NCBI GenBank assembly: GCA_963667505.2
Contig: OY763490.2
Location: forward strand, 3,245,773-3,309,772
Length of the DNA stretch: 64,000 bases
Reading direction: 5' to 3'
From: Acidimicrobiales bacterium
Lineage (GTDB): Bacteria > Actinomycetota > Acidimicrobiia > Acidimicrobiales > Aldehydirespiratoraceae
Shown: positions 7,575-63,034 of the stretch, piece by piece
Layout: each line of letters begins with the position of its first letter
How positions within the stretch are numbered: the first letter of the stretch is position 1
The notes under the pieces: generated by a model
The model's database searches: none
What the model saw: the letters and a program-made list of their open reading frames with translations, nothing else
What the model was told of the DNA's origin: nothing
Made by a program: the position numbers and the translations under genes

Positions 7575-7596
7575 GCTGCCTCCCGTTGGGTTGTTG

Positions 7597-20291: not shown

Positions 20292-20346
20292 CGGCCGAAG
20301 AAACCGAGCAACAGAACCACGACACCTCGAACAAGGGGGTAGCACC

Positions 20347-21276: not shown

Positions 21277-21310
21277 GCAGCGTGACGGTCGGTGCTGGTG
21301 TGGCAGGTCT
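21255..21310 (+). repeat. 20-bp direct duplication of the mgsA 3' end
   Basis: GGTGCTGGTGTGGCAGGTCT occurs at 21255-21274 (ending in TAG) and again at 21291-21310 (followed by GA, giving TGA). Period is 36 bp. Confidence 0.9.
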
Positions 21311-21343
21311 GAGTCGGGATCCCAGCCCGAGAGGGGAGCGCTG

Positions 21344-22138: not shown

Positions 22139-22252
22139 AGGCCGAGCGGAAGGGGAGCGATTCGTGAGCAAGTTCGCGAGGCATCGAGCGAGGCCGTGGC
22201 CCGAGCGGCCCGTGAGCGCAGCGAACAAGAGCGGGAATTAGGAGCACTGGTC

Positions 22253-23647
22253 ATGTCTGAAGTCAACAAGAGCACCGACGTCCTGGGCAAGAGCCGCATC
22301 TTCACGCCCGAGGTCATCAACGACATCCATGTGAAGTCCGAGCTGGGCCGCTACCGGATGCGAGGCTTCTCGATCTTCAAGAAGATCCCCCACTGGGACG
22401 AGCTGGTGTTCCTGCCGGGCACCCTCACCCGGTTCGTGATCGAGGGCTACCGCGAGAAGTGCGAGACCCGCACGGTCATCGGCTCGCGCTTCGCGGCCAA
22501 GCCCCTGGAGCTCGACATCCCGGTGTACATCACCGGCATGAGCTTCGGCGCGCTGTCGCTGGAGGCCAAGATGGCCCTGGCCAAGGGCGCCTCCATGGCC
22601 GGCACCGCCACCTGCTCGGGCGAGGGCGGGATGATCCCGCCCGAACGCGACCTGTCCACCAAGTGGTACTACCAGATCATCCAGAGCCGCTACGGCTTCA
22701 ACCCCCATCACCTGATGCTGGCCGACGCGGTGGAGTTCTTCATCGGACAGGGCTGCAAGGTCGGCCTCGGCGGCCACCTCATGGGCCAGAAGGTCACCGA
22801 GCAGGTGGCCGAGATGCGCTCGCTGCCCGCGGGCATCGACCAGCGCTCCCCGGCACGGCATCCCGACTGGCTCGGCCCCGACGACCTGTCGCTGAAGATC
22901 CAGGAGGTACGCGAGGCCACCGACTACCAGATCCCCATCCAGCTCAAGCTGGGCTCGGCCCGGGTCTACGACGACGTGCGCATGGCGGCCAAGTGCGGCC
23001 CCGACGTGATCTACCTCGACGGCGCCGAGGGTGGCACCGGCGCCGGACCCCACCTGGCCACCGAGGAGACCGGCATCCCGCTGATGGCGGCCATCCCCGA
23101 GGCCCGCCGGGCCCTCGAAGACGTGGGCCTGGCCGACGACATCGACCTGGTCGTGGCGGGCGGCATCCGCAACGGCGGCGACGTGGCCAAGTGCCTGGCC
23201 CTGGGGGCCGACGCGGTGGCGTTGGGCACGGCCGCGCTGATGGCGCTCAACTGCAACAAGGAGATCCCTGGCGTCACCGACTACGAGGGCACCATCGGCG
23301 TGCCCGCGGGCGAGTGCTACCACTGCCACACCGGCCGCTGCCCGGTGGGGGTGGCCACTCAGGACGTGGAGCTGCGCAAGCGCCTCGACGTCGACGAGGC
23401 CGCCCTGCGGGTCTACAACTTCCTGATCACGCTCACGATGGAGGTGCAGATGCTGGCCCGGGCCTGCGGCAAGACCGACATCCACTCACTGGAGCCCGAG
23501 GACCTGGCCGCCCTCACCCACGAGGCGGCGGCCATGGCCAAGGTGCCTCTGGCGGGAACCAACTACATCCCCGGCGTCACCGAGGAGCGCACCCTGGCCG
23601 AGATCAGGGACCTGTTCGACAAGCACGTCATCGACGGAGGAATGTGA
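22253..23647 (+). CDS. mgsC: FMN-binding glutamate synthase family protein, N-methylglutamate synthase subunit C-like
   Basis: GltS FMN-domain motifs (ITGMSFGALS, YLDGAEGGTGAGP, VAGGIRNGGDVAKCLALGADAV). TAGGAG lies upstream of the ATG at 22253. The tracked ORF starts at 22196. Confidence 0.75.
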   Translation: MSEVNKSTDVLGKSRIFTPEVINDIHVKSELGRYRMRGFSIFKKIPHWDELVFLPGTLTRFVIEGYREKCETRTVIGSRFAAKPLELDIPVYITGMSFGALSLEAKMALAKGASMAGTATCSGEGGMIPPERDLSTKWYYQIIQSRYGFNPHHLMLADAVEFFIGQGCKVGLGGHLMGQKVTEQVAEMRSLPAGIDQRSPARHPDWLGPDDLSLKIQEVREATDYQIPIQLKLGSARVYDDVRMAAKCGPDVIYLDGAEGGTGAGPHLATEETGIPLMAAIPEARRALEDVGLADDIDLVVAGGIRNGGDVAKCLALGADAVALGTAALMALNCNKEIPGVTDYEGTIGVPAGECYHCHTGRCPVGVATQDVELRKRLDVDEAALRVYNFLITLTMEVQMLARACGKTDIHSLEPEDLAALTHEAAAMAKVPLAGTNYIPGVTEERTLAEIRDLFDKHVIDGGM

Positions 23648-23688
23648 AATGGCTGGAACTGCCGACGCGACGACGAGGGAGCAGTGAC

Positions 23689-24144
23689 ATGGCCGGATCG
23701 GCGAGCACGGGCGAGAGCCCCCGCGAGACCCGCACGGTCGCCATCGACGCCGAGGTGCTGGCCGGCAAGCGCTTCGCCTATCAGGAGGACGTGTCGCTGG
23801 TGGAGGACATCGACCTGCTGGCGGCCACCCCCGGCCCCGACATCAACTGGCTGGAGGACATCACCCTGCTGGAGGAGGACGGCGTGCCCGCGGTGTTCGA
23901 CCGCTACTCGAACTCGTTTCTGAAGATCTACTTCCCGATCCCGCCCGGCCGCGAGGACGAGGTCGCCCGCAAGGTGCTCATCAAGCACCTGACCGAGGGC
24001 AACTCCTACGGGATCACGCTCAAGGACATCCACTGCAAGTTCCCGCAGGTAGAGCTGGGGCCGTGGGTGGACGATTCTCCGATCGTGGGCACCGACTGGC
24101 GCCAGCCGGTGCTGGAGGGATGGACCGCCCCCGCGAGCCACTGA
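23689..24144 (+). CDS. hypothetical acidic protein (151 aa), no family recognised
   Basis: In-frame tail of ORF 22459..24144. The ATG at 23689 is preceded by GAGGGAG. GC3-rich codon usage. Lies 41 nt after the mgsC stop and 42 nt before the flavoprotein gene. Confidence 0.55.
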   Translation: MAGSASTGESPRETRTVAIDAEVLAGKRFAYQEDVSLVEDIDLLAATPGPDINWLEDITLLEEDGVPAVFDRYSNSFLKIYFPIPPGREDEVARKVLIKHLTEGNSYGITLKDIHCKFPQVELGPWVDDSPIVGTDWRQPVLEGWTAPASH

Positions 24145-24186
24145 GACCGAGAGGCTGAGCGCGAGCAGACAAGGAGGGCAGCTCCA

Positions 24187-25518
24187 ATGGGACTTCCAGG
24201 CTCGGCACGCTATGTGATCATCGGCGCCGGCATACACGGCCTGTCGACTGCGTGGAACCTGGCCCGCGACCTGGGATCGTCGGGTCGGGGATCGGGCGAC
24301 GACGTGGTGGTCATCGACAAGACCGGCGTCGGCGCGGGCGCGTCCGGCATCGCCTGCGGCGTCGTGCGCAACAACTACTTCCAGCCGGCCATGCGCGAGC
24401 TGATGGCCCACTGCACCGACGTCTGGGAGAGCGACCCCGAGGCGTTCTCATACCATCCGGTGGGCTACCTGCAGATCAGCCACGAGGCCATGCGGGCCGA
24501 CGTGGCCTCGATCCACGCCCAGCAGCAGGCCATCGGCTACTCCTCGACCTTCGTCGAGGGCGCGGCGCCCTCGGCGGCGTACATGCGGGGGATCTTCGAC
24601 GACTGGCAGGCTCAGGGCGTCACCAGCGTGCTGCACGAGCACCGCGGCGGCTACGCCAACAACATGGCGTCGCTCAAGGGACTGCTGCAGAAGGCGGAAG
24701 CCGAGGGCGTGGCCGTGGTGGGCGGCGTGACCGTGACCGGCTTCGACCGCGACGCATCCGGGGCGGTCACTGCGGTGCTCACCGACCAGGGGCCGGTGGA
24801 GTGCGACCATGTGGTGGTGGCGGTCGGGCCGTGGGTCCAGCAGATCTGGGCCATGCTCGACCTGCCCTTCACTGTCGATGTGCTCGGACGCGACGGTCGC
24901 CTCCACCGCCGGCCCACCTGGACCTACATGTGCCTGCAGGAGGGCACGCTCGGTGTCGATCCGGGCTACCTCACCGACAACGACGGGAACATGCCGCCGG
25001 TGGTCCACATCGACACTGACGCCCCGCTGCACGACGAAGAAGGGCTGGTCACCGAGGGGCCGTGGGGCGTCTACTACAAGCCCGACTTCAACTTCGGCGG
25101 CGTGCAGGGCGGCTACATGCCCTACGTGGTGGACAAGCCCGCTGAGGAGGTCGCGGTCGATCCCTACGGCCCGGACTCGCCCGACTTCATCGTGGGCGCC
25201 GAGTTCTACCGCACCTGGAGCGCGGCGCTGGCCCACTGCCAGAAGCGCTTCGAGGGCAAGTCGCACCTGATGAGCACCGAGCCGTCGGGCGGCATCGGCA
25301 GCTTCTCGCCCGACAACTTCCCGGTGTTCGACACGTTCTGCGACAACGCCTACTTCATCGCCGACTCCAACCACGGCTACAAGATGATCGGCGTGGGCAG
25401 CCTGGTAGCCAAGGAGCTGCTGGGCGAGTCGCAGGCCCTGCTGGCGCCGTTCCGATGGTCGCGCTACGCCGAGGGCAGGCTCCACCCGGTCAGCAACTCG
25501 CCCTACCCCTGGAGCTGA
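24187..25518 (+). CDS. FAD-dependent oxidoreductase (DAO family, sarcosine-oxidase-beta-like)
   Basis: Dinucleotide fold YVIIGAGIHGLSTAWNLA. Motif GIACGVVRNNY resembles the SoxB/MgdA-type region. 443 aa. Confidence 0.7.
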   Translation: MGLPGSARYVIIGAGIHGLSTAWNLARDLGSSGRGSGDDVVVIDKTGVGAGASGIACGVVRNNYFQPAMRELMAHCTDVWESDPEAFSYHPVGYLQISHEAMRADVASIHAQQQAIGYSSTFVEGAAPSAAYMRGIFDDWQAQGVTSVLHEHRGGYANNMASLKGLLQKAEAEGVAVVGGVTVTGFDRDASGAVTAVLTDQGPVECDHVVVAVGPWVQQIWAMLDLPFTVDVLGRDGRLHRRPTWTYMCLQEGTLGVDPGYLTDNDGNMPPVVHIDTDAPLHDEEGLVTEGPWGVYYKPDFNFGGVQGGYMPYVVDKPAEEVAVDPYGPDSPDFIVGAEFYRTWSAALAHCQKRFEGKSHLMSTEPSGGIGSFSPDNFPVFDTFCDNAYFIADSNHGYKMIGVGSLVAKELLGESQALLAPFRWSRYAEGRLHPVSNSPYPWS

Positions 25519-54612: not shown

Positions 54613-55956
54613 TCAGGCCGAGTCGGCCAGGTAGGACTCCAGCGAGTCGTCGAGGGCGTCCTCCCACCGGGTGTGGTGGATGGGCGCCACCGTGCCCGTC
54701 AGCGGCGACGTGTGCCCGTGGTCGCGGTAGCCGATGATCGACTGCTTCTTGTGCTTCTTCCAGTCGTAGAACATCTTGTTGACCAGTGGCGTGTTGAAGT
54801 CCGGGTAGTCGGTCTGGTCCACCAGGTCCTGGGTGTAGTCGCCCTGGAAGTCGATGCAGGCGTAGTCGTCGGCCAGCGCGTCCTCCGCGGCCTGGGCCTC
54901 CGCGATCCAGCGGGCCTGCTCGTCGGCGCCGGGCAGGTCGATACGGCCCATGATCACGTCGCGGGCGTACCAGGCTTGCGCGTCGAACATGTTGAACGTG
55001 TACCACTGGTCCTGCATCCCCAGGTACATGATCCGGTTCTCGGGCTGGAACACCACGCCGCGGTACAGCATCGAGGTGGCCAGCCGGTTGGCGGTCACCA
55101 GCCGCAGCTCGTCGTCCATGAACGGGAAGTGGTGCAGGTAGCCGGTGCACGACACGATGGCGTCCACCTCGGCGGTCGAGCCGTCGGCGAAGTGCACTGT
55201 CCGGCCCTCCACCCGGGTCAGGATGGGCCGCTCGGTGATGCCCTCGGGCCAGTCGAAGCCCATGGGGCCGCTGCGCGACGAGCAGACCACCGAGCGGGCC
55301 CCGTACTTCCAGAGCTGCGAGGCGACGTCCTCGGCCGAGTAGCTGGCTCCGATCACCAGCACGTCGCGGTCGGCGAACTGCACCGCGTCGCGGAAGTCGT
55401 GGGCGTGCATGAGCGTGCCCCCGAAGGTCTCATAGCCGGGGTAGTGGGGCATGTTGGGGACCGAGAAGTGCCCGGTGGACACCACCACATAGTCGAAGTC
55501 CTCGCTGATGTCGGCGTCGTCGGCCTGGTCGTGGGCGGTCACGGTGAAGCCGTCGCCTTGGGCGGAGCGGCTCACTCGGCGCACCGGATGGTTGAAGCGG
55601 ATCTGGTCGCGGAAGCCGCTGCGGTCGGCCCGGCCCACGATGTAGTCGTAGAGCACCTCGCGGGGCGGGAACGACGCGATCGGCCTGCCGAAGTGCTCCT
55701 CGAAGCCGTAGTCGGCGAACTCGAGGCACTCCTTGGGGCCGTTGGACCACAGGTAGCGGTACATGCTGGCGTGGCAGGGCTCCCCGTGCTCGTCGAGCCC
55801 GGTGCGCCAGCTGTAGTTCCAGAGCCCGCCCCAGTCCTCCTGCTTCTCGAAACAGACGACGGTGGGCGCGGCGTCACCCGCGGCGGTGTCGCTGGCGAAG
55901 GCGTGGAGTTGCGACAGCCCGCACGGCCCGGCTCCGATGACAGCCACTCGTGTCAT
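54613..55956 (-). CDS. tmm: flavin-containing monooxygenase, probable trimethylamine monooxygenase
   Basis: 447 aa. Motifs VIGAGPCG, EKQEDWGGLWNYSWRTGLDEHGEPCHASMYRYLWSNGPKECLEF, FMO motif FGGTLMHAHDFRD, and NADPH site VIGASYSAED. From memory this closely matches bacterial Tmm. Adjacent to the tdm-like gene. Confidence 0.8.
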   Translation of the reverse strand: MTRVAVIGAGPCGLSQLHAFASDTAAGDAAPTVVCFEKQEDWGGLWNYSWRTGLDEHGEPCHASMYRYLWSNGPKECLEFADYGFEEHFGRPIASFPPREVLYDYIVGRADRSGFRDQIRFNHPVRRVSRSAQGDGFTVTAHDQADDADISEDFDYVVVSTGHFSVPNMPHYPGYETFGGTLMHAHDFRDAVQFADRDVLVIGASYSAEDVASQLWKYGARSVVCSSRSGPMGFDWPEGITERPILTRVEGRTVHFADGSTAEVDAIVSCTGYLHHFPFMDDELRLVTANRLATSMLYRGVVFQPENRIMYLGMQDQWYTFNMFDAQAWYARDVIMGRIDLPGADEQARWIAEAQAAEDALADDYACIDFQGDYTQDLVDQTDYPDFNTPLVNKMFYDWKKHKKQSIIGYRDHGHTSPLTGTVAPIHHTRWEDALDDSLESYLADSA

Positions 55957-56085
55957 ATCCGAATCTCCCCTGTGGTTGGACGCGCCGGTAGTGGCATCAA
56001 AAGCTAGCGCAGCCCGTCGGTGCTGTGTGGAGACGGGTGGCGGCGCGTGACAGGCGACTCGTCGAGAGGCGCTCCGCCGATGCGG

Positions 56086-58476
56086 TCAGGCGAGACCGCG
56101 GACGCGGGTCTTGTCGGGATCGTAGAACGGGTAGCGGACCACCTCGGCTTCGATGCGCTTCTCGTGACCGTCGAGCTTGCCGACCTCCACGGCTGTGCCG
56201 ATCTCGGTGTACTCCACCGCCATGCGGCACAGGGCGATGTTCTTGCGCAGGATCGGCGAGATGGTGGCGCTGGTGACCACGCCCACCTGGTTGCGCCCCG
56301 CGTACACGCCGTCGCCGTGGGCGGCGGGCTCGCCTCCGCCCAGTTCCAGGCCGACCAGGCGGCGCTGCGGGTTGTCGCGGCGCTTGGTGAGCGCCTCGCG
56401 GCCGATGAAGTCGTCGTCGTTGGTCTTGAGAGCGACCGTGAAGCCGATGCCGGCCTCGTACGGGTCGGTCTGGTCGCAGAACTCGTGGCCCGCGAAGATC
56501 AGCCCCGCCTCGATCCGCAGGATGTCCAGCGCGGCCAGGCCCATGGGCACGAGGCCGTGGTCGGCGCCTGCCTGGAAGACTGCATCCCACACCGCGGGGG
56601 CGTCGGAGGGATGGCAGAACACCTCGTAGCCGAGCTCGCCGGTGTAGCCGGTGCGAGACACCACCAGCGGGATGCCGTCGTGGTCGCCGATACGGGCGAT
56701 GGCGAACCGGAACCACCCCATCTCCGCGATGGTGGGCTGGTCGGGGCGGGTCCAGGTGGCCTGCTCGAGGATGCGACGGCTGTTGGGCCCCTGCACCTGC
56801 AGGTTGTGGAGCTGCTCGGTGGAACTGCGGACCCAGGCCTGCAGTCCCAGGCGCTGGGCCTGCTCGCGCAGCCAAACTCCGCTGTATCCGAGCTGCCCGC
56901 CGATCCAGCGGAAGTTCTCGCGGCCCAGCCGGAACACGGTGCCGTCGTCGATCATGCCGCCCGTCGGGTGGCACATGGCGGTGTAGACCACCTGGCCGTC
57001 GGCGAGGCGGCGTATGTTGCGGGTGACGCAGGTCTGCATCAGCAGCTCGGCGTCGGGGCCGGTGACCTCGTACTTGCGCAGCGGGGAGAGGTCGATGGCC
57101 GCGGCGGCCTGCCGACAGGCCCAGTACTCGGCGACCGGGCCGTGGGCGGTGTAGGAGTCGGCCAGCCAGTAGCCGCAGTACTCGCTGAAGCTGCGGGTCA
57201 GCGCGGAGGTGCGGGGATGGAAGCCGGTCTCGGAGGTGAGCTGTGCCTCGGAGTCTGCGGTCATGCGGATGGCCGTCGCTTTCTTGAACCGGTTGGCGGC
57301 TGGGTACACCCGCACCGCGATGTCGGTCGGGTTCCAGGCGTTGGCCGCGTCGATGTCGTCGGGGCAGGCGGTGGTGACGCAAACCAGGTCCTCGAGGGCT
57401 CGCAGCAGCACGTAGTCGCCGGGGCGGGACCAGGGCTCGTCCAGGTAGATCTGGTTGGCGTCGTCGAGGTTGGTGTTGTAGAAGAAGTTGATGGCCTCCC
57501 AGCCCCGGCGGCGGGCCACGCCGTAGGGATCGAGGGCGTCGTTGATGTTTTCGGTGCAGTTGACGTGGCCGGGGTAGCCCATCTCCTCGTAGTAGCGGGC
57601 GTTGCAGGCGGTGTTGAAGGTGTCGTGACGGCCGACGGTGTCCTGGACCACCTCCACCAGCGGCTGCATCCTGGCGTTGAAGAACTTCGAGTACAGGCCG
57701 GGCGCGGGACAGCTCGCCCCCATGAGGGTGCGGGTGATGGTGGCGTCGAGGCTCAGCTCGACGCCACCGTCTAGGTCGGCCGCCGCGAAGCACTGGAAGT
57801 CCGAGCACTGCCGCCCCTCAACGTCCACCACCTGGAACCAGTCGCCCTTGGCCACCTCGTATGCCGCCGCGGTGCAGCGACCGACGATGAAGTCCTGGCT
57901 GGGGTCGGTCAGCGGCGCCGGCAGCAGAGGCTCGACTTCGGCAGCGGGGTTGCTTCGGTGGACGTAGGCGACCAGGTCGGTGGGCGGCACGCCGCCGTGG
58001 GCCGACATGGGCTCGCCGGGCGCGGCGACCGCGCAGGCCACGTCGGCGTGGGCCACCACTCGGGCGGTGACGCCCGGCGGGGTGTCGCCGCTCAGGACCC
58101 GCAGCGGCGTCGCGGCCCGCACCGCGGCCAGGTCGATGCCGGCCCGCGCCAGTCCGGCCCGCACCCGGCGGGCGTCCGCCAGCGGCGCGGACAGGATCCC
58201 CAGCGCGGCCGGCTTGTCGTCGCCCGATGCCCGCCCGCGGTGGCCGTCGCCGTCGACGACGCTGAGCAGGCCTGGGTCGGATCGGCCCGCCGTGTCGAAG
58301 GTGACCAGTTCACAGCCCTGCCGCCCCTCGGGATCGACGACCTCTAGTTCGTCTCCGGCGTCGAGGGCCACCACGGTGGCGCCGCCACCGGTCACCCGGT
58401 AGCGCTCCACCCCCGGCCCGAGCAGCATCAGCCCCGGCACCACCATCCGGGACTGCTCAGGCGAGATCGTTGTCAT
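56086..58476 (-). CDS. tdm: DUF1989 plus GcvT (aminomethyltransferase-fold) fusion, probable trimethylamine-N-oxide demethylase
   Basis: 796 aa from MTTISPEQ. N-terminal half is DUF1989-like (WFQVVDVEGRQCSDFQCF...CPDDIDAANAWN). C-terminal half is GcvT-like (IDLSPLRKYEVTGPDA...VSRTGYTGELGYEV). The 130 Arg-rich residues upstream in the tracked ORF were discarded. Confidence 0.8.
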   Translation of the reverse strand: MTTISPEQSRMVVPGLMLLGPGVERYRVTGGGATVVALDAGDELEVVDPEGRQGCELVTFDTAGRSDPGLLSVVDGDGHRGRASGDDKPAALGILSAPLADARRVRAGLARAGIDLAAVRAATPLRVLSGDTPPGVTARVVAHADVACAVAAPGEPMSAHGGVPPTDLVAYVHRSNPAAEVEPLLPAPLTDPSQDFIVGRCTAAAYEVAKGDWFQVVDVEGRQCSDFQCFAAADLDGGVELSLDATITRTLMGASCPAPGLYSKFFNARMQPLVEVVQDTVGRHDTFNTACNARYYEEMGYPGHVNCTENINDALDPYGVARRRGWEAINFFYNTNLDDANQIYLDEPWSRPGDYVLLRALEDLVCVTTACPDDIDAANAWNPTDIAVRVYPAANRFKKATAIRMTADSEAQLTSETGFHPRTSALTRSFSEYCGYWLADSYTAHGPVAEYWACRQAAAAIDLSPLRKYEVTGPDAELLMQTCVTRNIRRLADGQVVYTAMCHPTGGMIDDGTVFRLGRENFRWIGGQLGYSGVWLREQAQRLGLQAWVRSSTEQLHNLQVQGPNSRRILEQATWTRPDQPTIAEMGWFRFAIARIGDHDGIPLVVSRTGYTGELGYEVFCHPSDAPAVWDAVFQAGADHGLVPMGLAALDILRIEAGLIFAGHEFCDQTDPYEAGIGFTVALKTNDDDFIGREALTKRRDNPQRRLVGLELGGGEPAAHGDGVYAGRNQVGVVTSATISPILRKNIALCRMAVEYTEIGTAVEVGKLDGHEKRIEAEVVRYPFYDPDKTRVRGLA

Positions 58477-58481
58477 CGCGG

Positions 58482-58898
58482 TCAGCGGCGGCGGCCTAGG
58501 GGTCCTGACAGGCCTCGGCCGCTTGGGCGATCGCCGTCGGTGCCGTCTCCAGGGGCGGCGACGTTGGCGAACATGTCCCAGACCAGCAGTACGGCAGCCA
58601 CGACGGATGCCGCGGCCGCGATCCAGAGACCGGCGGCCGGGTCGGTCTTGTCGTCGAACACGGCTCGCAGCGCGGTGGCGGCCGCGAACCCGGCGCCGAT
58701 CCAGGCCGGCCGCCAGCCCACCTGCACCAGCCCGACGGTCACCAGGCCCGCCACCAGGACGAGCTGGCCCTCGTTGGTCTCGACGCCCTGCACCGACTTG
58801 GTCGCGCTGCCTGATGCGGCCGTGTGCCAAGGCAGGAACATCGCCGCGGCCGCGCCGGCCATGCACACTTGGGCGACCCGTCTGCGGATGCTCCTCAC
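58482..58898 (-). CDS. hypothetical integral membrane protein (126-138 aa)
   Basis: 3-4 hydrophobic segments. GTG at 58898 or ATG at 58862. The stop lies 5 nt before the tdm ATG. Confidence 0.5.
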   Translation of the reverse strand: MRSIRRRVAQVCMAGAAAAMFLPWHTAASGSATKSVQGVETNEGQLVLVAGLVTVGLVQVGWRPAWIGAGFAAATALRAVFDDKTDPAAGLWIAAAASVVAAVLLVWDMFANVAAPGDGTDGDRPSGRGLSGPLGRRR

Positions 58899-58922
58899 GG
58901 CGTCAGGGTCGGGGGTTCAGGC

Positions 58923-58968
58923 GCGGACGGGCGCCGCATCGCCATGTGACGACGCGGCGCCCGTCCGC
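58923..58968 (-). terminator. strong GC stem-loop (candidate intrinsic terminator, attenuator or processing site)
   Basis: Perfect 15-bp inverted repeat: GCGGACGGGCGCCGC (58923-58937) and GCGGCGCCCGTCCGC (58954-58968), with a 16-nt loop. Lies 22 nt after the stop of the 42-aa ORF. No U-tract. Confidence 0.45.
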
Positions 58969-58990
58969 ATTGAATGGGGTGAGTCAGCCG

Positions 58991-59119
58991 TCAGCCAACG
59001 GCCTGGATGCAGATGAGCGTGAAGACGATGCAGGCCAGGCCGAAGATGACGATGGCCATCTCGATGCCCTTGTCGTGGCCCTGCTTGCCCTTGAGCTCGA
59101 AGTGCTTGCGGTTGGCCAT
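58991..59119 (-). CDS. 42-aa single-pass membrane micro-protein (MANRKHFELKGKQGHDKGIEMAIVIFGLACIVFTLICIQAVG)
   Basis: Hand-translated; below the ORF-track cut-off. The ATG lies 1 nt after the upstream stop, with GGAGGA 6 nt upstream. Basic N-terminus plus one TM. Confidence 0.5.
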   Translation of the reverse strand: MANRKHFELKGKQGHDKGIEMAIVIFGLACIVFTLICIQAVG

Positions 59120-59120
59120 G

Positions 59121-59345
59121 TCAGTCCTCCGAGTTGTACTTGTCGGCGAGACGGTCGGCCGCGTCGTTGAGGAGCTTGTCCTCGCGGGCGGTGATCATCA
59201 CAGCCATGATCACTGAGACGGCTATGGCGATGATCGCCAGGACCACCGAGGCCGTGTTGCCGCCGGGCCCCCAGGTGAAGTACCCGGTAGTGCCGTCGGC
59301 CGCTTCCAAGGCGGCCTCCCAGCTGTCGTATGGGAAGGTGTTCAT
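59121..59345 (-). CDS. 74-aa single-pass membrane protein
   Basis: ORF-track entry. Central TM segment VVLAIIAIAVSVIMAVMI. AGGAGGA before the ATG. GC3-rich codons. Confidence 0.55.
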   Translation of the reverse strand: MNTFPYDSWEAALEAADGTTGYFTWGPGGNTASVVLAIIAIAVSVIMAVMITAREDKLLNDAADRLADKYNSED

Positions 59346-59503
59346 TCAGTCCTCCTGTTGGGTGAACTAGATCGGTCGTTGCGTCTGTCGTGATGTTGCG
59401 CCTCTTGCTGTGCCCGCCTGCGCTTGCCCCAGTACCCGGCGGCGGCGACCACCGCGTACATGAGGGCTATGGCGAGGACTAGCTGCAGCCATGAGGCGGA
59501 CAC
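59342..59503 (-). CDS. 53-aa single-pass membrane protein (GTG start assumed)
   Basis: In-frame tail of ORF 59342..59593, beginning 4 nt after the amt stop. TM segment WLQLVLAIALMYAVVAAAGYW, then a basic tail. Its TGA overlaps the next ATG (ATGA). No clear SD. Confidence 0.35.
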   Translation of the reverse strand: MSASWLQLVLAIALMYAVVAAAGYWGKRRRAQQEAQHHDRRNDRSSSPNRRTE

Positions 59504-59507
59504 CCGG

Positions 59508-60896
59508 CTAGCGGCTATTGCTGTAGTCGGACTGCAGCACGCCCGCAGAGACCACTTCAGTTCCGTCGGGCTGGATGATCGTCTCGTCGGCACGGCCGTG
59601 CTCCGGGAAGAAGTCCATCCCGTACTCGGCCATGTCGAGGCCCTCGATCTCGACCTCGGGCGGCACCCTCAGCAGGTTGAGCTTCTTGAGGATCCACGAG
59701 GCGATGTAGCCAGTGAAGAACGCCAGCGGTATGAGCGCGGCAGCCCCCACGAGCTGGCCCAGGAAGCTGGTCTCCACGCCGGCCGGACCGGTCGGGTACC
59801 CGGCTGCGAAGATGCCGACGCATATCACCCCGAAGAAGCCCATCACGCCGTGGACGGTCACCGCGCCGACGGCATCGTCGATGCGGGCCCTCGTGTCGAA
59901 CCAGTTGCCCACGTGGTAGGCGATCCCGGCCGAGAAGAAGGCGAGGATCAGGACCAGGTTCGGGCTGTAGATGTCGGCGCCCGCCGAGACGGTCACGACG
60001 CCTGCCAGGCCCCCGGAGATGGTCCAGAACGGATCGCCCCGAGAGAAGAGGTAGCCGCCGGCGAAGCCGCCCGCGAAGCCCATGGTGATGGTGTAGGTGA
60101 TGGCCGACAGAGTGGCCGGGTTGAAGTAGATGTTCGCCCAGCCCGGAGTGGTGTCGGCCGTAATGGCCAGGCACGCCGCGTAGAACGCGTAGAACGCCGA
60201 GAAGATGATCATCAGCCCCATCAGCGTCATGTGGACGTTGTGGGGTTTGAACGTTCGGGCGTTGCCGTCGGCGTCGTACCTCCCGATTCTCGGGCCGAGG
60301 TTGAACAGCACCCCCAAGGCGAAGATGCCCGAGATGCCGTGGACCACGCCGGAGGCGGCGAAGTCGTGGTAGCCGAAGTGGACGGTCAGCCAGCCGCCGT
60401 AGCTCCATCCCCAAGCCGCGGCCACGACCCAGACCAGGCCGCCCATCAGGGCGGTCAGCCACAGGTAGGCCGAGATGCGGATGCGCTCCAGGACTGCGCC
60501 GGACATGATCGATCCGGTCGTCCACGAGAACAGCACGAAGGCCGCCCAGAAGACGCCGGTGATGTTGTCGCCGAGGTTCGGTCCCGCGGAGCCGTCCCAC
60601 GGCAGGCCGTAGCCGTCGCCGCAGAAGTACAGCCCCTCAAGTCCTGCGGGGCTGGCGCCGTCGGCTGAGACCGTGAACTTCAGTCCCTCCTGCATGCAGA
60701 AGTACACGTACCAGCCGAAGTAGTAGAACGTCGGTGTCACGACGGCTATTGTCATGATGTTCTTCATTGCCGTGGACATGATGTTCTTGCGTCGTGATAC
60801 ACCGGCTTCATATGTCATGAAGCCCACATGCAAGAACCACATGAGAGCGACAGTGAAGAAGTAGTAAGCCTCGGTGAACACAATAGAAGTGTCCAT
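59508..60896 (-). CDS. amt: ammonium transporter (Amt/MEP family)
   Basis: About 462 aa from MDTSIVFTEAYYFF with about 11 TM. Family stretches DFAASGVVHGISG, AVTVHGVMGFFGVI. Confidence 0.85.
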   Translation of the reverse strand: MDTSIVFTEAYYFFTVALMWFLHVGFMTYEAGVSRRKNIMSTAMKNIMTIAVVTPTFYYFGWYVYFCMQEGLKFTVSADGASPAGLEGLYFCGDGYGLPWDGSAGPNLGDNITGVFWAAFVLFSWTTGSIMSGAVLERIRISAYLWLTALMGGLVWVVAAAWGWSYGGWLTVHFGYHDFAASGVVHGISGIFALGVLFNLGPRIGRYDADGNARTFKPHNVHMTLMGLMIIFSAFYAFYAACLAITADTTPGWANIYFNPATLSAITYTITMGFAGGFAGGYLFSRGDPFWTISGGLAGVVTVSAGADIYSPNLVLILAFFSAGIAYHVGNWFDTRARIDDAVGAVTVHGVMGFFGVICVGIFAAGYPTGPAGVETSFLGQLVGAAALIPLAFFTGYIASWILKKLNLLRVPPEVEIEGLDMAEYGMDFFPEHGRADETIIQPDGTEVVSAGVLQSDYSNSR

Positions 60897-61041
60897 CGAC
60901 TCACCCCCAATTCTTCTGGTCTGTCCCCGGCCGGCTGGCCGGGCCACCGCTCACGATAGCACACCGATGCAATCCGCCCCGAATCAGGCAAGGACGGACG
61001 CTGTTTGCGGCCTGGCCGGTGGTGCGTGCGGCGGGTGGGCC

Positions 61042-61464
61042 TCAGTCGTCGCCGGGCTCGTCCACGTTGATCTGTTCGAGCTCGCCCGATCCGGCGTTCA
61101 CCCACACCGCGGCGCGGTGCAGGAAGTCTTCGGGGCCGCCGTCGGGCTCGCGCACGGTGAACACCACCACCCACATCGACTCGGGCGGGAAGCCCTGTCG
61201 CAGTACCTGCGCCTCGGTGTGCTCGGGGGCGAACGCCCCGGGGTGGGCGGCCAGCGCGGCGCGGGCGGTGGCCTGGGCCTCCTGTTCGGAGATGTCGACT
61301 CCCTGGCAGCTGCGGGTGAAGAAGAGCACGGCCAGCAGGACCCCGACGGCGATCAGCAGCACGGTGCGTCCCTGTAGTCGGCCCAGCCGCGAGAGAAAGC
61401 TGTTCGACCGCGCGCCGGCCGGCTCGGGATCGTGCGGCTCGGGCGCGGAGGGCAGGTCAGTCAT
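61042..61464 (-). CDS. hypothetical membrane-anchored protein
   Basis: Start taken at MTDLPS (61464). One TM (TVLLIAVGVLLAVLFF) followed by a soluble domain of about 95 aa. Overlaps the upstream gene by 8 nt. Confidence 0.5.
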   Translation of the reverse strand: MTDLPSAPEPHDPEPAGARSNSFLSRLGRLQGRTVLLIAVGVLLAVLFFTRSCQGVDISEQEAQATARAALAAHPGAFAPEHTEAQVLRQGFPPESMWVVVFTVREPDGGPEDFLHRAAVWVNAGSGELEQINVDEPGDD

Positions 61465-61681
61465 CTCGGGGCGGGCGGACCAGGAAGCGCAACACGATGT
61501 ATCCCACCACATGGGTGATGGCCACGAAGCTGATCCACCACAACGCGACCGTGAGTCGGTACTGCCGTTCCCGGCACTCCCACCAGGTGAGCCCCACCGC
61601 GCCGGCCAGCAGGATCCACAGCAGCAGGCTGTTGCCGGGGTTGCTGTCGCTCAGCCAGCCCAGCACGATCAGCAGGCCCAC
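61457..61681 (-). CDS. hypothetical small membrane protein (74 aa, 2-3 TM, Trp-rich)
   Basis: ORF-track entry. Starts 4 nt after the regulator stop. Confidence 0.45.
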   Translation of the reverse strand: MGLLIVLGWLSDSNPGNSLLLWILLAGAVGLTWWECRERQYRLTVALWWISFVAITHVVGYIVLRFLVRPPRDD

Positions 61682-61685
61682 AGCA

Positions 61686-62366
61686 TCATCCTCCTGCGTC
61701 TCGCGGCTCGCCGGCCGGGTACACCTTGATGGAGATGAACCGTATCGGCAACGTAACGAGCTCGACCGGACCGTGGGCCACCTCGCCGTGGATCTGCATG
61801 GTGTCGCCGGGGTTCAGGCGGTAGGCGGTGCCGCCGTAGCCGTAGTCGAGCGAGCCCTCCAGCACATGCAGGAACTCCACGCCGGGATGCTGGTACAGCG
61901 GGAACACGCCGCCCGGCTCGGTGATGGTGGTGATCATCGGCTCGATGACTCGGCCGGGGCCCCGCAGGGCGCCGAGATCCTGGTACAGCCGTCCGGGCCC
62001 TCCGCCCTGGTGGTGGATCTCGTGGCCCTCGCCGGCTCGCACGATCACCAGGTCGTGCTCCTCGTCGAGGCCCCGGAACAGGGCGGTGACCGGCACCTGG
62101 GCGGTGGCCGCCAGCCGTACCAGCGTCGAGAGGCTCGGCGCGCTCTGGCCATGCTCGATCTTGGACAGCATTCCCAGCGAGATCTCCGCGGCGGCCGCGA
62201 AGGCCGACATGGTCATGTTGAGAGCCTGGCGGAACTCGCGCACCCGGCTCCCTACCACTCGGCAGACCTCCTCGGTAGACACCGACGCCCCCAACGCGGC
62301 GGCGAAGTCGCTGGCACCGGGGTCGTTCGCAGCCATCGACGCCATCTCCCGATTATTGCCCGACAT
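61686..62366 (-). CDS. XRE-family HTH regulator with C-terminal cupin domain
   Basis: HTH region MSAFAAAAEISLGMLSKIEHGQSAPSLSTLVRLA. Cupin region HPGVEFLHVLEGSL...GDTMQIHGEVAHG. Start may be internal because the divergent gene is only 32 bp away. Confidence 0.8.
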   Translation of the reverse strand: MSGNNREMASMAANDPGASDFAAALGASVSTEEVCRVVGSRVREFRQALNMTMSAFAAAAEISLGMLSKIEHGQSAPSLSTLVRLAATAQVPVTALFRGLDEEHDLVIVRAGEGHEIHHQGGGPGRLYQDLGALRGPGRVIEPMITTITEPGGVFPLYQHPGVEFLHVLEGSLDYGYGGTAYRLNPGDTMQIHGEVAHGPVELVTLPIRFISIKVYPAGEPRDAGG

Positions 62367-62398
62367 CGGAGGCCCCGCGACACGCCTTCGGCGTTCGG

Positions 62399-63034
62399 GT
62401 GCCCGCAGCGGGCGTCGGACCCGCGGTCTACCATCGGTGCATCTTGATCCTTCTGCGGCATGGCCGCACTCCGAACAATGCCGAGGCCCGGCTTCAGGGA
62501 CAGTCCGACTCGCCTCTCGACGAGGTCGGCTTCGAGCAGTCCGCGGTGGTCGGCCGGGCCATCAGGGAGCGGTGGACGGTGGACCGGGTGGTGGCGTCAT
62601 CGCGCCGCCGCACCCGCCAGACGGCCCGGGCGGCCGGCCTCGGCGACCTGCCCACCACCATCGACGACCGCTGGATGGAGATCGACTTCGGCACCTACGA
62701 CGACCGTCGGATAGGCGAGGTCATGGCCGAGCTCGGCGCGGCCTGGGCCTCCGACATCTCGTTTGTGCCGCCCGGGGGCGAGTCGATGGCCTCGTTGCAC
62801 GAGCGGGTGGGCGAGGCGGTGGCCGACATCGCGGAGGAGGCGACCGCCCGCAACATCGTGGTTGTGACCCATGCGACCCCGGTGAAGTCTGCGGTGGTGC
62901 GGCTGCTGGGCGGGGGCGCCGAGATGATCATGCGGCTGCGAGTCAGCCTGGCGTCGGTCACCGTGTTCGGCCCGGTGGCGCACGGGCTCGTGCTCACCGA
63001 GTTCAACTGGTGTCCGGCTCGCGGCGTCGCCTGA
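62399..63034 (+). CDS. histidine phosphatase (phosphoglycerate-mutase-like) family protein
   Basis: LLRHGRTPNN catalytic RHG motif and distal VVTHATP. Start uncertain. Confidence 0.75.
   Translation: MPAAGVGPAVYHRCILILLRHGRTPNNAEARLQGQSDSPLDEVGFEQSAVVGRAIRERWTVDRVVASSRRRTRQTARAAGLGDLPTTIDDRWMEIDFGTYDDRRIGEVMAELGAAWASDISFVPPGGESMASLHERVGEAVADIAEEATARNIVVVTHATPVKSAVVRLLGGGAEMIMRLRVSLASVTVFGPVAHGLVLTEFNWCPARGVA

What the first reader, a model, noticed from the sequence alone, without database searches (positions are those of the whole stretch)
58482..62366. Amt transporter followed by three ATGA/1-nt-coupled single-pass micro-proteins (53, 74, 42 aa) and a small polytopic protein, directly upstream of tdm-tmm
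Downstream of the Amt gene are three tightly chained tiny ORFs, each with one hydrophobic helix.
- The 74-aa ORF has AGGAGGA upstream of its ATG.
- The 42-aa ORF has GGAGGA upstream of its ATG.
- The 53-aa ORF has no clear SD and relies on an assumed GTG start.
- The junctions are an ATGA overlap and a 1-nt gap.

After a strong hairpin comes a 126-138-aa membrane protein whose stop is 5 nt from the tdm start.

Upstream of amt, an XRE-cupin regulator and two more small membrane proteins are co-oriented.

I recognise none of the small proteins. Their tight linkage to an Amt-family channel inside a trimethylamine module suggests accessory subunits or regulators of a methylated-amine/ammonium channel. 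Two of the three are below typical annotation length cut-offs.
Basis: partly seen in the sequence, partly recalled or inferred. Interest (0 to 1): 0.6.

Follow-up and report, generated by a model that had tools for sequence, protein, structure and literature searches.

The report
Amt channel with dedicated membrane micro-proteins
A divergent ammonium/methylamine-channel gene is always followed by the same tiny membrane-protein genes, in sponge symbionts, ocean and soil bacteria, so these unstudied micro-proteins are probably built-in partners of the channel, something not reported for this universal transporter family in the literature I could search.

Summary
On the minus strand lie xre-cupin, up74, up156, amt, ORF1 (53 aa), ORF2 (74 aa), ORF3 (42 aa), a 22-bp hairpin, p138, tdm and tmm.

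The small ORFs are real genes:
- Synteny is conserved in 31 of 37 genomes of the genus and 61 GTDB loci.
- Median dN/dS is 0.27-0.36 in the annotated frame, against 0.6-2.1 in shifted frames.
- The ORF1 start is GTG or ATG; SD sites are conserved for ORF2 and ORF3.

They travel with the Amt gene, not with tdm-tmm. This Amt is a distinct paralog. It carries FYAFYAAC where canonical Amts have WFGFNGGS, and the twin-His residues are kept. In 61 related genomes, ORF2 is present exactly where this paralog is present. A motif scan of metagenomes found the paralog in ocean, soil and rhizosphere contigs. Of 44 loci with enough flank, 43 had ORF2-like and 44 had ORF3-like genes downstream. Several soil loci sit beside N-methylglutamate-pathway-like genes instead of tdm.

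No Pfam or NCBIfam family matches the micro-proteins.

Best reading (about 0.55): they are accessory subunits or regulators of a methylamine-type Amt channel. This rests on comparative genomics only, with no expression or interaction data.

The parts
61686..62366 (-). XRE-HTH + cupin transcription regulator (226 aa); 4 nt upstream of up74
   Evidence: Pfam HTH_3 at 1.6e-11 and Cupin_2 at 1.3e-11. Weak PuuR-like NCBIfam hit below cut-off. Detected in 33 of 48 full-context GTDB loci, so it is not an obligatory part of the block.
61457..61681 (-). up74: 74-aa membrane protein, two predicted TM helices, conserved W-E-C-R-E-R-G-Y-R loop
   Evidence: Conserved in 46 of 48 full-context loci. Also present in soil-type loci, where it lies downstream of amt. 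No Pfam or NCBIfam hit. Hydropathy.
61042..61464 (-). up156 (140 aa from ATG 61464): N-terminal cytoplasmic tail, one TM, extracytoplasmic helix plus four-strand sheet (PepSY-like) domain. Start overlaps the up74 stop by 8 nt.
   Evidence: Alignment A3. AF2 model at pLDDT 81 with H60-73 and four strands. Soil homologues hit PF03413 PepSY at 3.6e-4 and 4.8e-3, below the gathering score. Foldseek gave only weak hits (4exr, BLIP, cystatin-like scaffolds; E >= 0.1).
59508..60896 (-). Divergent Amt-family channel (462 aa from ATG 60896; the frame is open to GTG 60947). FYAFYAAC replaces WFGFNGGS.
   Evidence: PF00909 at 1.6e-63; TIGR00836 scores 228 bits, below its 343-bit cut-off. Residue mapping against Ks-Amt5 and the genome's canonical Amt: D160, H168, H318, W148 and F215 equivalents are kept; W212->F, N216->Y, S219->C or gap. 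The motif is invariant in 40 relatives. Identity to the canonical paralog is about 31%, and the distribution is bimodal (>=78% or <=38%). The start at M18 is inferred from the GGGGGTGA upstream and from the basic stretch that an upstream start would add to an outward-facing N-terminus.
59342..59503 (-). ORF1: 53 aa, short N-out stub, one TM (M-Y motif), polybasic cytoplasmic stretch, variable tail. GTG start 4 nt after the amt stop, no SD.
   Evidence: Start is GTG in 50 and ATG in 8 of 58 loci; the gap to the amt stop is 3-9 nt in 39 of 41. No SD in 56 of 58. Core dN/dS is 0.35 against 0.67 and 1.49 in shifted frames; the tail is unconstrained. The ORF1 HMM finds it in 24 of 44 metagenome loci.
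59121..59345 (-). ORF2: 74 aa, acidic aromatic-rich N-terminal segment (FPYDSW...GYFTWGPGGN), one TM, conserved C-terminal helix (REDKLLNxAADRLADKY).
   Evidence: Found in 31 of 37 genus genomes with intact frames. 184 homologues in the 5.8-billion-protein set, all unnamed or 'hypothetical'. Only 24 clusters at E <= 1e-3 among 1.84 billion representatives. dN/dS is 0.30 against 1.36 and 1.75 in shifted frames; GC3 is 0.89. SD core of at least 5 nt in 57 of 58 loci. ORF2-like gene downstream of this Amt type in 43 of 44 metagenome loci.
58991..59119 (-). ORF3: 42 aa, basic cytoplasmic N-terminal peptide (KQIEF..Q.H.K motif), then one TM that runs to the C-terminus with a conserved Cys.
   Evidence: dN/dS is 0.36 against 0.59 and 2.12 in shifted frames; GC3 is 0.95. 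SD core of at least 5 nt in 51 of 55 loci. The motif is kept in distant and soil loci as KQIEFPPxQTHxKxFE. Found in 44 of 44 metagenome loci. In NCBI nr as hypothetical protein, e.g. MCY3619058.1.
58923..58968 (-). Perfect 22-bp GC-rich hairpin without a U-tract, between ORF3 and p138
   Evidence: Fold of -58.2 kcal/mol with z = -6.8. A strong stem-loop sits at the same place in nearly all sponge-clade relatives, with quite different stem sequences. It is absent where the ORF3-p138 gap is 3-37 nt. No Rfam family reaches gathering score. The consensus terminator scan finds nothing.
58482..58898 (-). p138: 138-aa four-TM protein with a beta-hairpin after TM1. GTG start without SD; stop 5 nt before tdm.
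   Evidence: Alignment A2. AF2 model at pLDDT 77, pTM 0.61, with four helices plus E23-29 and E32-37. Foldseek top hits are all TARP gamma-2 or claudins (E 0.02-0.2, prob up to 1.0, TMq 0.5-0.58), which is not significant by E-value. dN/dS is 0.27. Present in 48 of 48 full-context GTDB loci but not seen in soil-type loci.
56086..58476 (-). tdm, trimethylamine N-oxide demethylase (796 aa)
   Evidence: NCBIfam NF053776 equivalog at 1170 bits against a 1100-bit cut-off. Pfam DUF1989 + GCV_T + GCV_T_C.
54613..55956 (-). tmm, trimethylamine monooxygenase (447 aa)
   Evidence: NCBIfam NF058570 equivalog at 738 bits against a 675-bit cut-off. Pfam FMO-like.

Best explanation
The window encodes a specialised Amt-family channel together with its own set of small integral-membrane proteins.

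Shown:
- ORF1, ORF2, ORF3, p138, up74 and up156 are genuine genes under purifying selection.
- ORF2 and ORF3 (and usually ORF1, up156 and up74) are inherited together with one distinct Amt paralog. That paralog keeps the conducting core (twin-His, Asp160, Trp148 and Phe-gate equivalents). Its outer ammonium-recruitment motif is remodelled from WFGFNGGS to FYAFYAAC.
- The genes are chained at distances typical of translational coupling.
- The block sits in methylated-amine catabolic neighbourhoods: tdm-tmm in marine and sponge Acidimicrobiia, and type III GS plus NMG-synthase-like genes in soil-type and some other loci.

Inferred:
- The micro-proteins assemble with the Amt trimer as accessory subunits that stabilise, gate or tune the channel.
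- The channel serves methylamine/methylammonium (possibly dimethylamine) traffic for these pathways rather than bulk ammonium. The genome has a separate canonical Amt for that.

Predicted topology fits this picture:
- ORF2 puts an acidic, aromatic-rich 30-residue segment outside. Variants of it carry a Cys pair.
- ORF3 puts a basic KQIEF..Q.H.K peptide on the cytoplasmic face.
- ORF1 puts a polybasic tail on the cytoplasmic face.
- p138 (marine clade only) is a four-TM, TARP/claudin-like auxiliary protein.

The hairpin after ORF3 separates the amt-ORF1-3 unit from p138-tdm-tmm. It probably acts as a U-less terminator or stabiliser that sets their relative expression.
For: Genes are real:
- Synteny holds in 31 of 37 genus genomes and 61 GTDB loci.
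- dN/dS is 0.27-0.36 in frame against 0.59-2.1 out of frame; Amt itself is 0.13.
- ORF1 start is GTG or ATG. SD sites are conserved for ORF2 and ORF3.

Tie to the Amt paralog:
- In 61 related genomes, 31 have both the paralog and ORF2. One has an Amt fragment at a contig end. 29 have neither (5 in the same genus, 24 in other families).
- All four other hits in a 400-genome phylum sample have an ORF2-like gene directly downstream.
- 43 of 44 metagenome loci have ORF2-like and 44 of 44 have ORF3-like genes downstream.
- Two ORF2 relatives among the weakest matches of the profile search (L102, L103) still follow an Amt C-terminus.
- The block stays together where tdm, tmm or xre are missing or moved (L095, L098, L099, L093).

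Coupling distances: amt to ORF1 is 3-9 nt; ORF1 to ORF2 is -4 to about 44 nt; ORF2 to ORF3 is 1-15 nt.

Distinct paralog: motif analysis; a canonical Amt lies elsewhere in the genome.

Methylamine context:
- Tdm and Tmm equivalogs.
- TIGR03105 type III GS above cut-off plus GATase2/GXGXG/GltS-FMN genes beside the block in L098, and by tblastn in L149, L174, L150 and L155.
- amt and XRE genes recur in TMA/DMA/MMA clusters of Rhodobacteraceae (PMC7574528; PMC5520151).
- Assimilatory Amts conduct methylammonium and dimethylammonium (PMC5764959).

Fusion-type hints: P0134 reads as ORF1 joined to ORF2; P0121 and P0113 carry an extra TM before the FPYDSW segment, which places that segment between two TMs.

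Fold hint: p138's best matches are channel auxiliary subunits (TARPs).
Against: - There is no direct evidence of expression, of physical association, or of any effect on transport.
- Conserved adjacency and co-occurrence also fit co-regulated proteins that act elsewhere.
- dN/dS of 0.3-0.36 is relaxed compared with Amt (0.13).
- ORF1 is missing in some loci (L102, L227). p138 is clade-restricted. So the set is not fixed.
- The substrate assignment rests on neighbourhood and on motif changes whose effect is unknown.
- Foldseek and PepSY matches are below significance.
- HMM seeds for the metagenome count included some sequences from the same loci.
Confidence: 0.55

Rival explanations
1. Receptor reading. 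The divergent Amt does not transport but senses external methylamine or ammonium, like Ks-Amt5 and Sd-Amt1. The separate small membrane proteins and the PepSY-like protein relay the signal, for example by holding or releasing the XRE-cupin regulator at the membrane.
For: - Known receptor Amts keep the selectivity and twin-His residues, so the conserved residues here do not prove transport (PMC11152129; PMC5764959).
- An XRE-cupin regulator is chained 4 nt upstream of up74 in the window.
- ORF1, ORF2 and ORF3 all expose conserved cytoplasmic peptides.
- The outer binding motif is remodelled.
Against: - No transducer domain is fused to this Amt, which ends after an ordinary C-terminal region.
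- The xre gene is absent from 15 of 48 full-context loci and was seldom detected near soil-type loci.
- The apparent closeness to Ks-Amt5 and Sd-Amt1 in PDB searches is not specific. The genome's canonical Amt ranks the same structures first, with twice the score.
Confidence: 0.15
2. Co-regulated but independent. The small proteins are membrane components of methylated-amine metabolism that do not bind Amt. They might anchor or organise soluble enzymes, or protect the membrane against ammonia, amine or formaldehyde stress. They merely share an operon with the transporter.
For: - p138 abuts tdm (5 nt) and appears to begin a separate, possibly leaderless unit after the hairpin.
- Selection on the micro-proteins is weaker than on Amt.
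- The composition of the set varies between clades.
Against: - ORF2 and ORF3 follow this Amt paralog both in tdm-tmm and in NMG-type neighbourhoods, and were never found without it.
- Their order and coupling distance to the amt stop are conserved, while all enzyme genes around them change.
Confidence: 0.2
3. The small ORFs are chance open frames in GC-rich intergenic DNA and are not translated.
For: - High-GC genomes give many spurious ORFs (one search lists dozens).
- ORF1 has no SD and a GTG start.
- ORF1 with this start is not in the public protein collection.
Against: - Frames, lengths and motifs are kept at 42-95% amino-acid identity across genera.
- dN/dS is lowest in the annotated frame.
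- GC3 is 0.89-0.95 for ORF2 and ORF3.
- ORF1 start alternates between GTG and ATG.
- SD sites are conserved.
Confidence: 0.02

Closest known systems
AmtB-GlnK (amtB-glnK operon; PII protein plugs the channel)
   Same: An Amt channel gene is co-transcribed with a dedicated partner that is thought to act on the channel itself. The partner is made in step with the channel.
   Different: GlnK is a soluble trimeric PII protein. Here no glnK follows amt, and no PII gene (PF00543) exists in this genome or in any of the 37 genomes of the genus. The partners are integral-membrane micro-proteins with no similarity to PII. They are not a simple replacement either: 13 of 16 other genomes carrying the block do have PII.
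Small-protein partners of bacterial transporters (AcrZ-AcrB, KdpF-KdpABC, MgtS/MgtR/MgtU-MgtA/B, MntS-MntP, SgrT-PtsG, WatS1, LucB)
   Same: Single-pass proteins of about 30-75 aa that bind a transporter and change its stability, specificity or activity. They are often encoded beside it. This is the kind of mechanism proposed here.
   Different: There is no sequence relationship. Here three to six different small proteins accompany one channel. The 2023 review of such regulators lists only GlnK for Amt proteins (PMC10710835).
amt (amtB) and XRE regulator genes inside TMA/DMA/MMA clusters of Rhodobacteraceae, Methylocella and SAR11
   Same: An Amt-family gene and an XRE-family regulator recur next to tmm, tdm, dmm, gmaS and mgs genes (PMC7574528; PMC5520151).
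   Different: Those reports do not mention small membrane proteins. Whether proteobacterial clusters have counterparts could not be tested with the collections available. The paralog here is a separate, motif-defined type: among GTDB species genomes it was found only in MAGs titled Acidimicrobiia/Actinomycetota, plus one contig in a MAG titled Bryobacterales, and in unclassified GC-rich metagenome contigs.
Receptor-type Amts Ks-Amt5 (6EU6) and Sd-Amt1 (8QJ3/8QJ4/8QPF)
   Same: They are the best-scoring solved structures for this Amt (109 and 96 bits). They are examples of Amt modules repurposed with added partner modules.
   Different: They carry fused histidine-kinase or HAMP-GGDEF domains, and this protein has none. 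The ranking is not specific, because the canonical paralog gives the same order.
TARP/claudin tetraspan auxiliary subunits (for p138)
   Same: Predicted four-helix bundle with an extracellular beta-hairpin after TM1. TARPs are auxiliary subunits of ion channels. Every one of the top 15 Foldseek hits is a TARP.
   Different: E-values are 0.02-0.2 and identity is 9-12%. The model has only moderate confidence (pLDDT 77). No claudin sequence signature was seen. This is a resemblance of shape only.

Membership tests
Amt/Mep/Rh ammonium transporter family (PF00909) | Full-length match to the family profile above the curated cut-off | tested here: met
   PF00909 at 215 bits against a 23.2-bit cut-off, residues 29-444. 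The stricter TIGR00836 'amt' subfamily model is not reached (228 bits against 343).
Amt/Mep/Rh ammonium transporter family (PF00909) | Pore residues: twin-His (H168, H318), D160, W148, Phe gate (E. coli AmtB numbering) | tested here: met
   HDFAASGVVHG and DDAVGAVxVHG are kept. AAWGW and the aligned Phe of the xFx motif are kept. All are conserved in 40 relatives. The numbering was transferred through the Ks-Amt5 and canonical-paralog alignments and through my knowledge of the AmtB motifs.
Amt/Mep/Rh ammonium transporter family (PF00909) | Canonical outer recruitment motif W-F-G-F-N-G/A-G-S (W212...S219) | tested here: not met
   The motif is replaced by F-Y-A-F-Y-A-A-C (HMMER alignment), or the same with S219 at a gap (MAFFT). 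The replacement is invariant in the subfamily.
AmtB-GlnK pair | PII gene (PF00543) adjacent to amt, or at least present in the genome | tested here: not met
   No PII is adjacent. No PF00543 match in the genome or in any of 37 genus genomes.
Receptor-type Amt (Ks-Amt5, Sd-Amt1) | Cytoplasmic transducer domain fused to the Amt C-terminus | tested here: not met
   The protein ends about 35 residues after the LRVPPEVEIEGLD region, and ORF1 starts 4 nt later.
Receptor-type Amt (Ks-Amt5, Sd-Amt1) | Binds but does not translocate the ligand | not testable with these tools
   Needs electrophysiology or uptake assays.
Small-protein transporter subunits/regulators (AcrZ, KdpF and similar; a functional class, not a homologous family) | Single-pass protein under about 75 aa encoded with the transporter | tested here: met
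   ORF1, ORF2 and ORF3 each have one predicted TM and lie 4 nt, -4 nt and 1 nt apart behind amt.
Small-protein transporter subunits/regulators (AcrZ, KdpF and similar; a functional class, not a homologous family) | Physical binding to the transporter with an effect on it | not testable with these tools
   No multimer prediction, pull-down or assay was possible.
PepSY domain (PF03413), for up156 | Profile match above the gathering score (24 bits) | tested here: inconclusive
   The window protein has no hit. Two soil homologues score 21.2 and 17.6 bits over model positions 2-58 of 60. The AF2 fold of helix plus four strands is compatible. Foldseek gives E >= 0.1.
Claudin/PMP22/TARP tetraspan superfamily, for p138 | Significant fold or sequence match | tested here: inconclusive
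   Foldseek E is 0.02-0.2 with TMq 0.5-0.58. No Pfam hit.
Trimethylamine N-oxide demethylase (NF053776) and trimethylamine monooxygenase (NF058570) | NCBIfam equivalog score above cut-off | tested here: met
   1170.1 bits against 1100, and 738.4 against 675.

The most novel reading that the evidence does not exclude
A previously unrecognised hetero-oligomeric form of the Amt channel. One Amt paralog has a remodelled, more hydrophobic outer binding site. It needs dedicated single-pass subunits:
- ORF2 would cap the outer vestibule with an aromatic-rich peptide.
- ORF3 and ORF1 would act on the cytoplasmic face.
- In marine lineages a TARP-like tetraspan auxiliary protein would be added.

Together they would take up or gate methylated amines. 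The system is spread through GC-rich bacteria of soil, ocean and sponges. It would be the missing methylamine entry route for the N-methylglutamate and TMA-oxidation pathways.
Probability: 0.35. Interest if true: 0.8.

Novelty: new variant of a known kind. Interest (0 to 1): 0.62.

Why it matters
- Amt/Mep/Rh proteins are universal. In prokaryotes their only established partner, as far as the review I read shows, is the soluble PII protein GlnK. Membrane-embedded accessory subunits would be a new layer of control, or of substrate tuning, for this family.
- How methylamine enters cells that use the N-methylglutamate pathway or TMA oxidation appears poorly defined in the papers I could reach. 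A motif-defined Amt paralog that always brings its own micro-proteins and always sits in such gene clusters is a concrete, testable candidate.
- The carriers include abundant sponge symbionts (MAGs titled Ca. Aldehydirespirator and Ca. Poriferisodalis). They also include organisms behind many soil and ocean metagenome contigs, so the system bears on marine and soil methylated-amine and nitrogen cycling.
- It adds three conserved families to the small-protein field, which is systematically under-annotated. ORF1 is not in public protein sets with its supported start.

Tried and rejected
1. Micro-proteins as a replacement for GlnK. PII is absent from all 37 genomes of the genus. However, it is present in 13 of 16 other genomes that carry the block, so there is no anticorrelation. 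Rejected as an argument; kept as a side observation.

2. Nearest solved structures are receptor Amts, so this is a receptor. The canonical paralog of the same genome ranks Sd-Amt1 and Ks-Amt5 first too, with double the score. The ranking is uninformative.

3. Family assignment of the small proteins. Pfam and NCBIfam scans of the window proteins and of ten divergent homologues gave nothing above cut-off. The only near hits were sub-threshold PepSY matches for up156 homologues.

4. Rfam on 58300-62700 at E <= 1 gave only meaningless hits on the hairpin (mir-3622, F6). Consensus promoter and terminator scans found nothing.

5. Fold searches of AF2 models of p138 and up156 gave no match at E <= 0.001. 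They are reported as leads only.

7. Tie to tdm-tmm. The block is within 10 kb of tdm in 47 of 48 GTDB loci. It is not in L098 or in soil-type contigs, where NMG-like genes take that place. The link is therefore to methylated-amine metabolism in general and to Amt in particular.

8. Literature searches for Amt-associated small membrane proteins, and for the candidate genera, found no description of these genes.

9. Proteobacterial methylamine clusters could not be examined.

Full report
**Anatomy**

All genes of interest lie on the minus strand. In order:
- xre-cupin regulator, 62366..61686.
- 4-nt gap, then up74, 61681..61457.
- up156. Its conserved start is ATG 61464, which overlaps the up74 stop by 8 nt (ATGACTGA). 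It ends at 61042.
- 145-nt spacer, then amt. The frame is open from 60947, but the likely start is ATG 60896 behind GGGGGTGA. Stop TAG is at 59510-59508.
- 4-nt gap, then ORF1 (GTG 59503..59342, 53 aa).
- ATGA overlap, then ORF2 (59345..59121, 74 aa), with AGGAGGA upstream.
- 1-nt gap, then ORF3 (59119..58991, 42 aa), with GGAGGA upstream.
- 92-nt spacer with a perfect 22-bp hairpin at 58923-58968.
- p138 (GTG 58898..58482).
- 5-nt gap, then tdm (58476..56086).
- 129-nt gap, then tmm (55956..54613).

Tdm and Tmm exceed NCBIfam equivalog cut-offs, and Amt matches PF00909.

**Organism**

Record titles of the closest loci name metagenome-assembled genomes of sponge-associated Acidimicrobiia. The titles include Candidatus Aldehydirespirator, Candidatus Poriferisodalis and 'Acidimicrobiaceae bacterium'.

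**Are the small ORFs genes?**

Conservation and synteny:
- ORF2 is found with an intact frame of the same length in 31 of 37 genomes of the genus, at 63-100% identity.
- In all 20 short and 20 long loci fetched, the order is xre, up74, up156, amt, ORF1, ORF2, ORF3, p138, tdm. Amino-acid identities are 52-79% for ORF1, 57-95% for ORF2, 57-80% for ORF3 and 48-71% for p138, against 77-96% for Amt.

Selection (median pairwise dN/dS):

| Gene | Annotated frame | Shifted frames |
|---|---|---|
| ORF1 core, codons 1-32 | 0.35 | 0.67, 1.49 |
| ORF2 | 0.30 | 1.36, 1.75 |
| ORF3 | 0.36 | 0.59, 2.12 |
| p138 | 0.27 | not computed |
| Amt (benchmark) | 0.13 | not computed |

GC3 is 0.89 for ORF2 and 0.95 for ORF3.

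Start signals:
- The ORF1 start codon is GTG in 50 and ATG in 8 of 58 loci. It lies 3-9 nt after the amt stop in 39 of 41 cases and has no SD in 56 of 58. This pattern fits termination-reinitiation.
- ORF2 has an SD core of at least 5 nt in 57 of 58 loci, and ORF3 in 51 of 55.
- The ORF1 tail beyond the polybasic stretch is variable in length and unconstrained.

**What do they travel with?**

GTDB species genomes:
- A profile scan gave 61 loci.
- Among 48 with full 20-kb context, all have amt, ORF2 and p138. Forty-five have all seven genes by tblastn (up74, up156, amt, ORF1-3, p138).
- In two of the three exceptions (L098 and L099), ORF inspection shows ORF1- and ORF3-like genes that tblastn missed.

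Distant members (Amt only 62-63% identical):
- The block stays together while its surroundings change.
- In L095 and L098, up156 and up74 lie on the opposite strand downstream of p138. In L093, tdm-tmm lie upstream.
- In L098 no tdm is nearby. Instead the block is flanked by a type III glutamine-synthetase-family gene (TIGR03105, 582 bits against a 470-bit cut-off), by GATase2, GXGXG and GltS-FMN genes, and by a SoxB-like oxidase.
- By established knowledge (Latypova 2010; Chen 2010), that gene set is the layout of the gamma-glutamylmethylamide / N-methylglutamate route for monomethylamine. This assignment is inferred from domains and gene order, not tested.

**The Amt is a separate paralog**

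- The genome has a canonical Amt elsewhere, with LGWFGFNGGS (PF00909 at 334 bits), and no PII gene.
- The window's Amt is about 31% identical to it.
- It keeps the equivalents of D160, H168, H318, W148 and the gate Phe residues.
- It has FYAFYAAC where Ks-Amt5, the canonical paralog and E. coli AmtB have WFGFNGGS or WFGFNAGS. The changes are W212->F, N216->Y and S219->Cys (or a gap in the MAFFT alignment).
- The motif is invariant in 40 relatives, including the most distant ones.

**Phyletic coupling**

In 61 related genomes, identities to this Amt are bimodal: at least 78% or at most 38%.
- 31 genomes have the paralog, and all 31 have ORF2.
- One has a fragment of it at a contig end.
- Five genomes of the genus lack both.
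- All 24 genomes of other families in the order lack both.

An even sample of 400 genomes of the phylum gave only four further carriers, in three families at 61-63% identity. All four have an ORF2-like gene directly behind amt, and one (L229) also has a GS-like gene close downstream of the block.

**Environmental spread**

- A degenerate DNA pattern for FYAFYAAC hit at least 120 metagenome contigs. They come from ocean (TARA and others), soil, desert and rhizosphere samples.
- Most of the 80 loci returned carry the Amt at 50-87% identity.
- Of 44 loci with the Amt C-terminus and at least 700 nt downstream, HMMs found an ORF2-family ORF in 43, an ORF3-family ORF in 44 and an ORF1-family ORF in 24. 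All lie on the same strand within 1.5 kb.
- Caveat: some HMM seeds came from these same loci.

Soil-type versions differ in detail but share the architecture:
- ORF1: about 35-40 aa, one TM plus an RRR stretch.
- ORF2: 96-121 aa, with an N-terminal segment holding two Cys and the motif GF(M/F)TFGPG, then one TM, then E(N/D)R+L.
- ORF3: KQIEFPPxQTHxKxFE, then one TM.
- These are followed by the PepSY-like protein and the up74-like protein. p138 was not seen there.

Several soil contigs carry the type III-GS-like and NMG-synthase-like genes within a few kb (L149, L174, L150, L155).

**Size of the ORF2 family**

- The family is small and uncharacterised. There are 184 hits in the 5.8-billion-protein set, none named beyond 'hypothetical protein'.
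- A profile search gave 24 clusters at E <= 1e-3 among 1.84 billion representatives. Three of those are long repetitive proteins and probably noise.
- The two weak members whose contigs I read (L102, L103) again follow an Amt C-terminus and precede an ORF3-like gene.

**Protein features**

Topology from hydropathy and charge and alignments:
- ORF1: N-out stub, one TM, polybasic C-terminus inside.
- ORF2: an acidic N-terminal 34 residues with no Lys or Arg and six aromatic residues (F4, Y6, W9, Y22, F23, W25). Then one TM with invariant Ser44 and Thr52, then R54-E55 and a conserved helix.
- Three points support an outside location for the ORF2 N-terminal segment. Variants insert a 14-residue piece with two Cys. 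Soil forms have a Cys pair. P0121 and P0113 add a TM in front of the segment.
- ORF3: a basic N-terminal peptide inside, then one TM with a conserved Cys.
- P0134 reads as ORF1 fused to ORF2.

Structure models:
- p138 folds at pLDDT 77 as four helices with a beta-hairpin after TM1. All of the best 15 Foldseek PDB hits are TARP gamma subunits, followed by claudins, at E 0.02-0.2. This is a shape resemblance to channel auxiliary subunits, not a membership.
- up156 folds at pLDDT 81 as one TM plus a helix on a four-strand sheet. Soil homologues reach PepSY at 3.6e-4, below threshold.

**The hairpin**

- A strong stem-loop of 14-22 bp lies between ORF3 and p138 in nearly all sponge-clade loci.
- The stem sequences are unrelated between subclades, for example GGCTGGCGCCGCGTCG, GGCAGACGCCGCGCCGCC and GTAGGGGGTACA. 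Structure, not sequence, is conserved.
- It is missing where the gap is 3-37 nt.
- No Rfam family or U-tract terminator pattern matches.
- p138 has a GTG start without SD in 51 of 56 loci. Many relatives have a TANNNT-like hexamer 6-7 nt upstream (sequences).
- I infer that the hairpin ends or stabilises the amt-ORF1-3 message, and that p138-tdm-tmm may start as a leaderless transcript. This is unverified.

**Interpretation**

- Shown: real genes, strict co-inheritance with one Amt paralog, coupling-type junctions, and a methylated-amine neighbourhood.
- Inferred: they assemble with the Amt trimer and tune or gate a methylamine-type channel.
- Assimilatory Amts are known to carry methylammonium and dimethylammonium (PMC5764959). 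amt and XRE genes are recurrent in TMA/DMA/MMA clusters of Rhodobacteraceae and others (PMC7574528; PMC5520151).
- A 2023 review of transporter regulation lists small-protein partners for several transporter families, but only GlnK for Amt (PMC10710835).

Rivals that remain open:
- A receptor role for this Amt, with the small proteins as relays. Receptor Amts keep the same pore residues (PMC11152129).
- Co-regulated but independent membrane functions.

**What could not be done**

- No multimer structure prediction.
- No access to proteobacterial clusters.
- No taxonomy for the soil contigs.

Noticed in passing
whole genome G000 and its genus (not in the window): No PII protein (PF00543; GlnB/GlnK) is found in this genome or in any of the 37 genomes of its genus. 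In contrast, 21 of 24 genomes from other families of the same order have one or two. This looks like a lineage-wide loss of a near-universal nitrogen regulator.
   Followed up: partly
window 18933-25515 (+): The window holds a second methylamine-type gene set: a GS-like gene, GATase2, GXGXG, GltS-FMN (83% identical to the L098 protein) and a SoxB-like FAD oxidase. A closer gmaS-like (62%) plus mgsABC-like set lies about 110 kb upstream of the window at C1:3131519-3136045.
   Followed up: partly
G000 contig C16 (44 kb), about 3500-12000: This contig is a near-duplicate of the window's amt region. ORF2 is 99% identical, Amt is split over two frames, and it carries the genes that relatives have between tdm and tmm. 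It is probably a second strain or a haplotype in the assembly, whose contamination estimate is 7%.
   Followed up: no
window 55957-56085, compared with L044:13321-17760 and other relatives: In the window tdm and tmm are 129 nt apart. In most relatives 1-4.5 kb is inserted there. The insert carries succinyl-CoA-synthetase-like alpha and beta genes and an HpcH/CitE-like lyase on the opposite strand, plus an aminotransferase gene co-oriented with tdm; the set looks like serine-cycle genes. I read this by eye from translations; no family scan was run.
   Followed up: no
window 58899-58922 and the same place in L042-L057: p138 starts with GTG and lacks an SD in 51 of 56 loci. Many relatives show TAGCCT, TAGTCT or TAATCT 6-7 nt upstream of the GTG, as expected for a leaderless transcript starting at the start codon. 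The window has GACCCT there.
   Followed up: no
window 61297-61314 (up156 residues 51-56, RSCQGV): A Cys directly after the TM of up156 is conserved in most homologues (SCSG, SCQG, GCSG, QSCQ) but absent in four distant ones. It might be a lipobox-like site, making the PepSY-like domain a lipoprotein.
   Followed up: no
P0120, P0122, P0124 (ORF2 variants); P0121, P0113; P0134: ORF2 has lineage-specific variants. Some have a 14-30-residue insertion with two Cys in the outer segment. Some have an extra N-terminal TM helix. One ORF (P0134) reads as ORF1 fused in frame to ORF2.
   Followed up: partly
window 60897-61041: A 145-nt spacer lies between up156 and amt, in an otherwise tightly packed string. 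No Rfam match was found. Its conservation and any promoter or operator were not examined.
   Followed up: no
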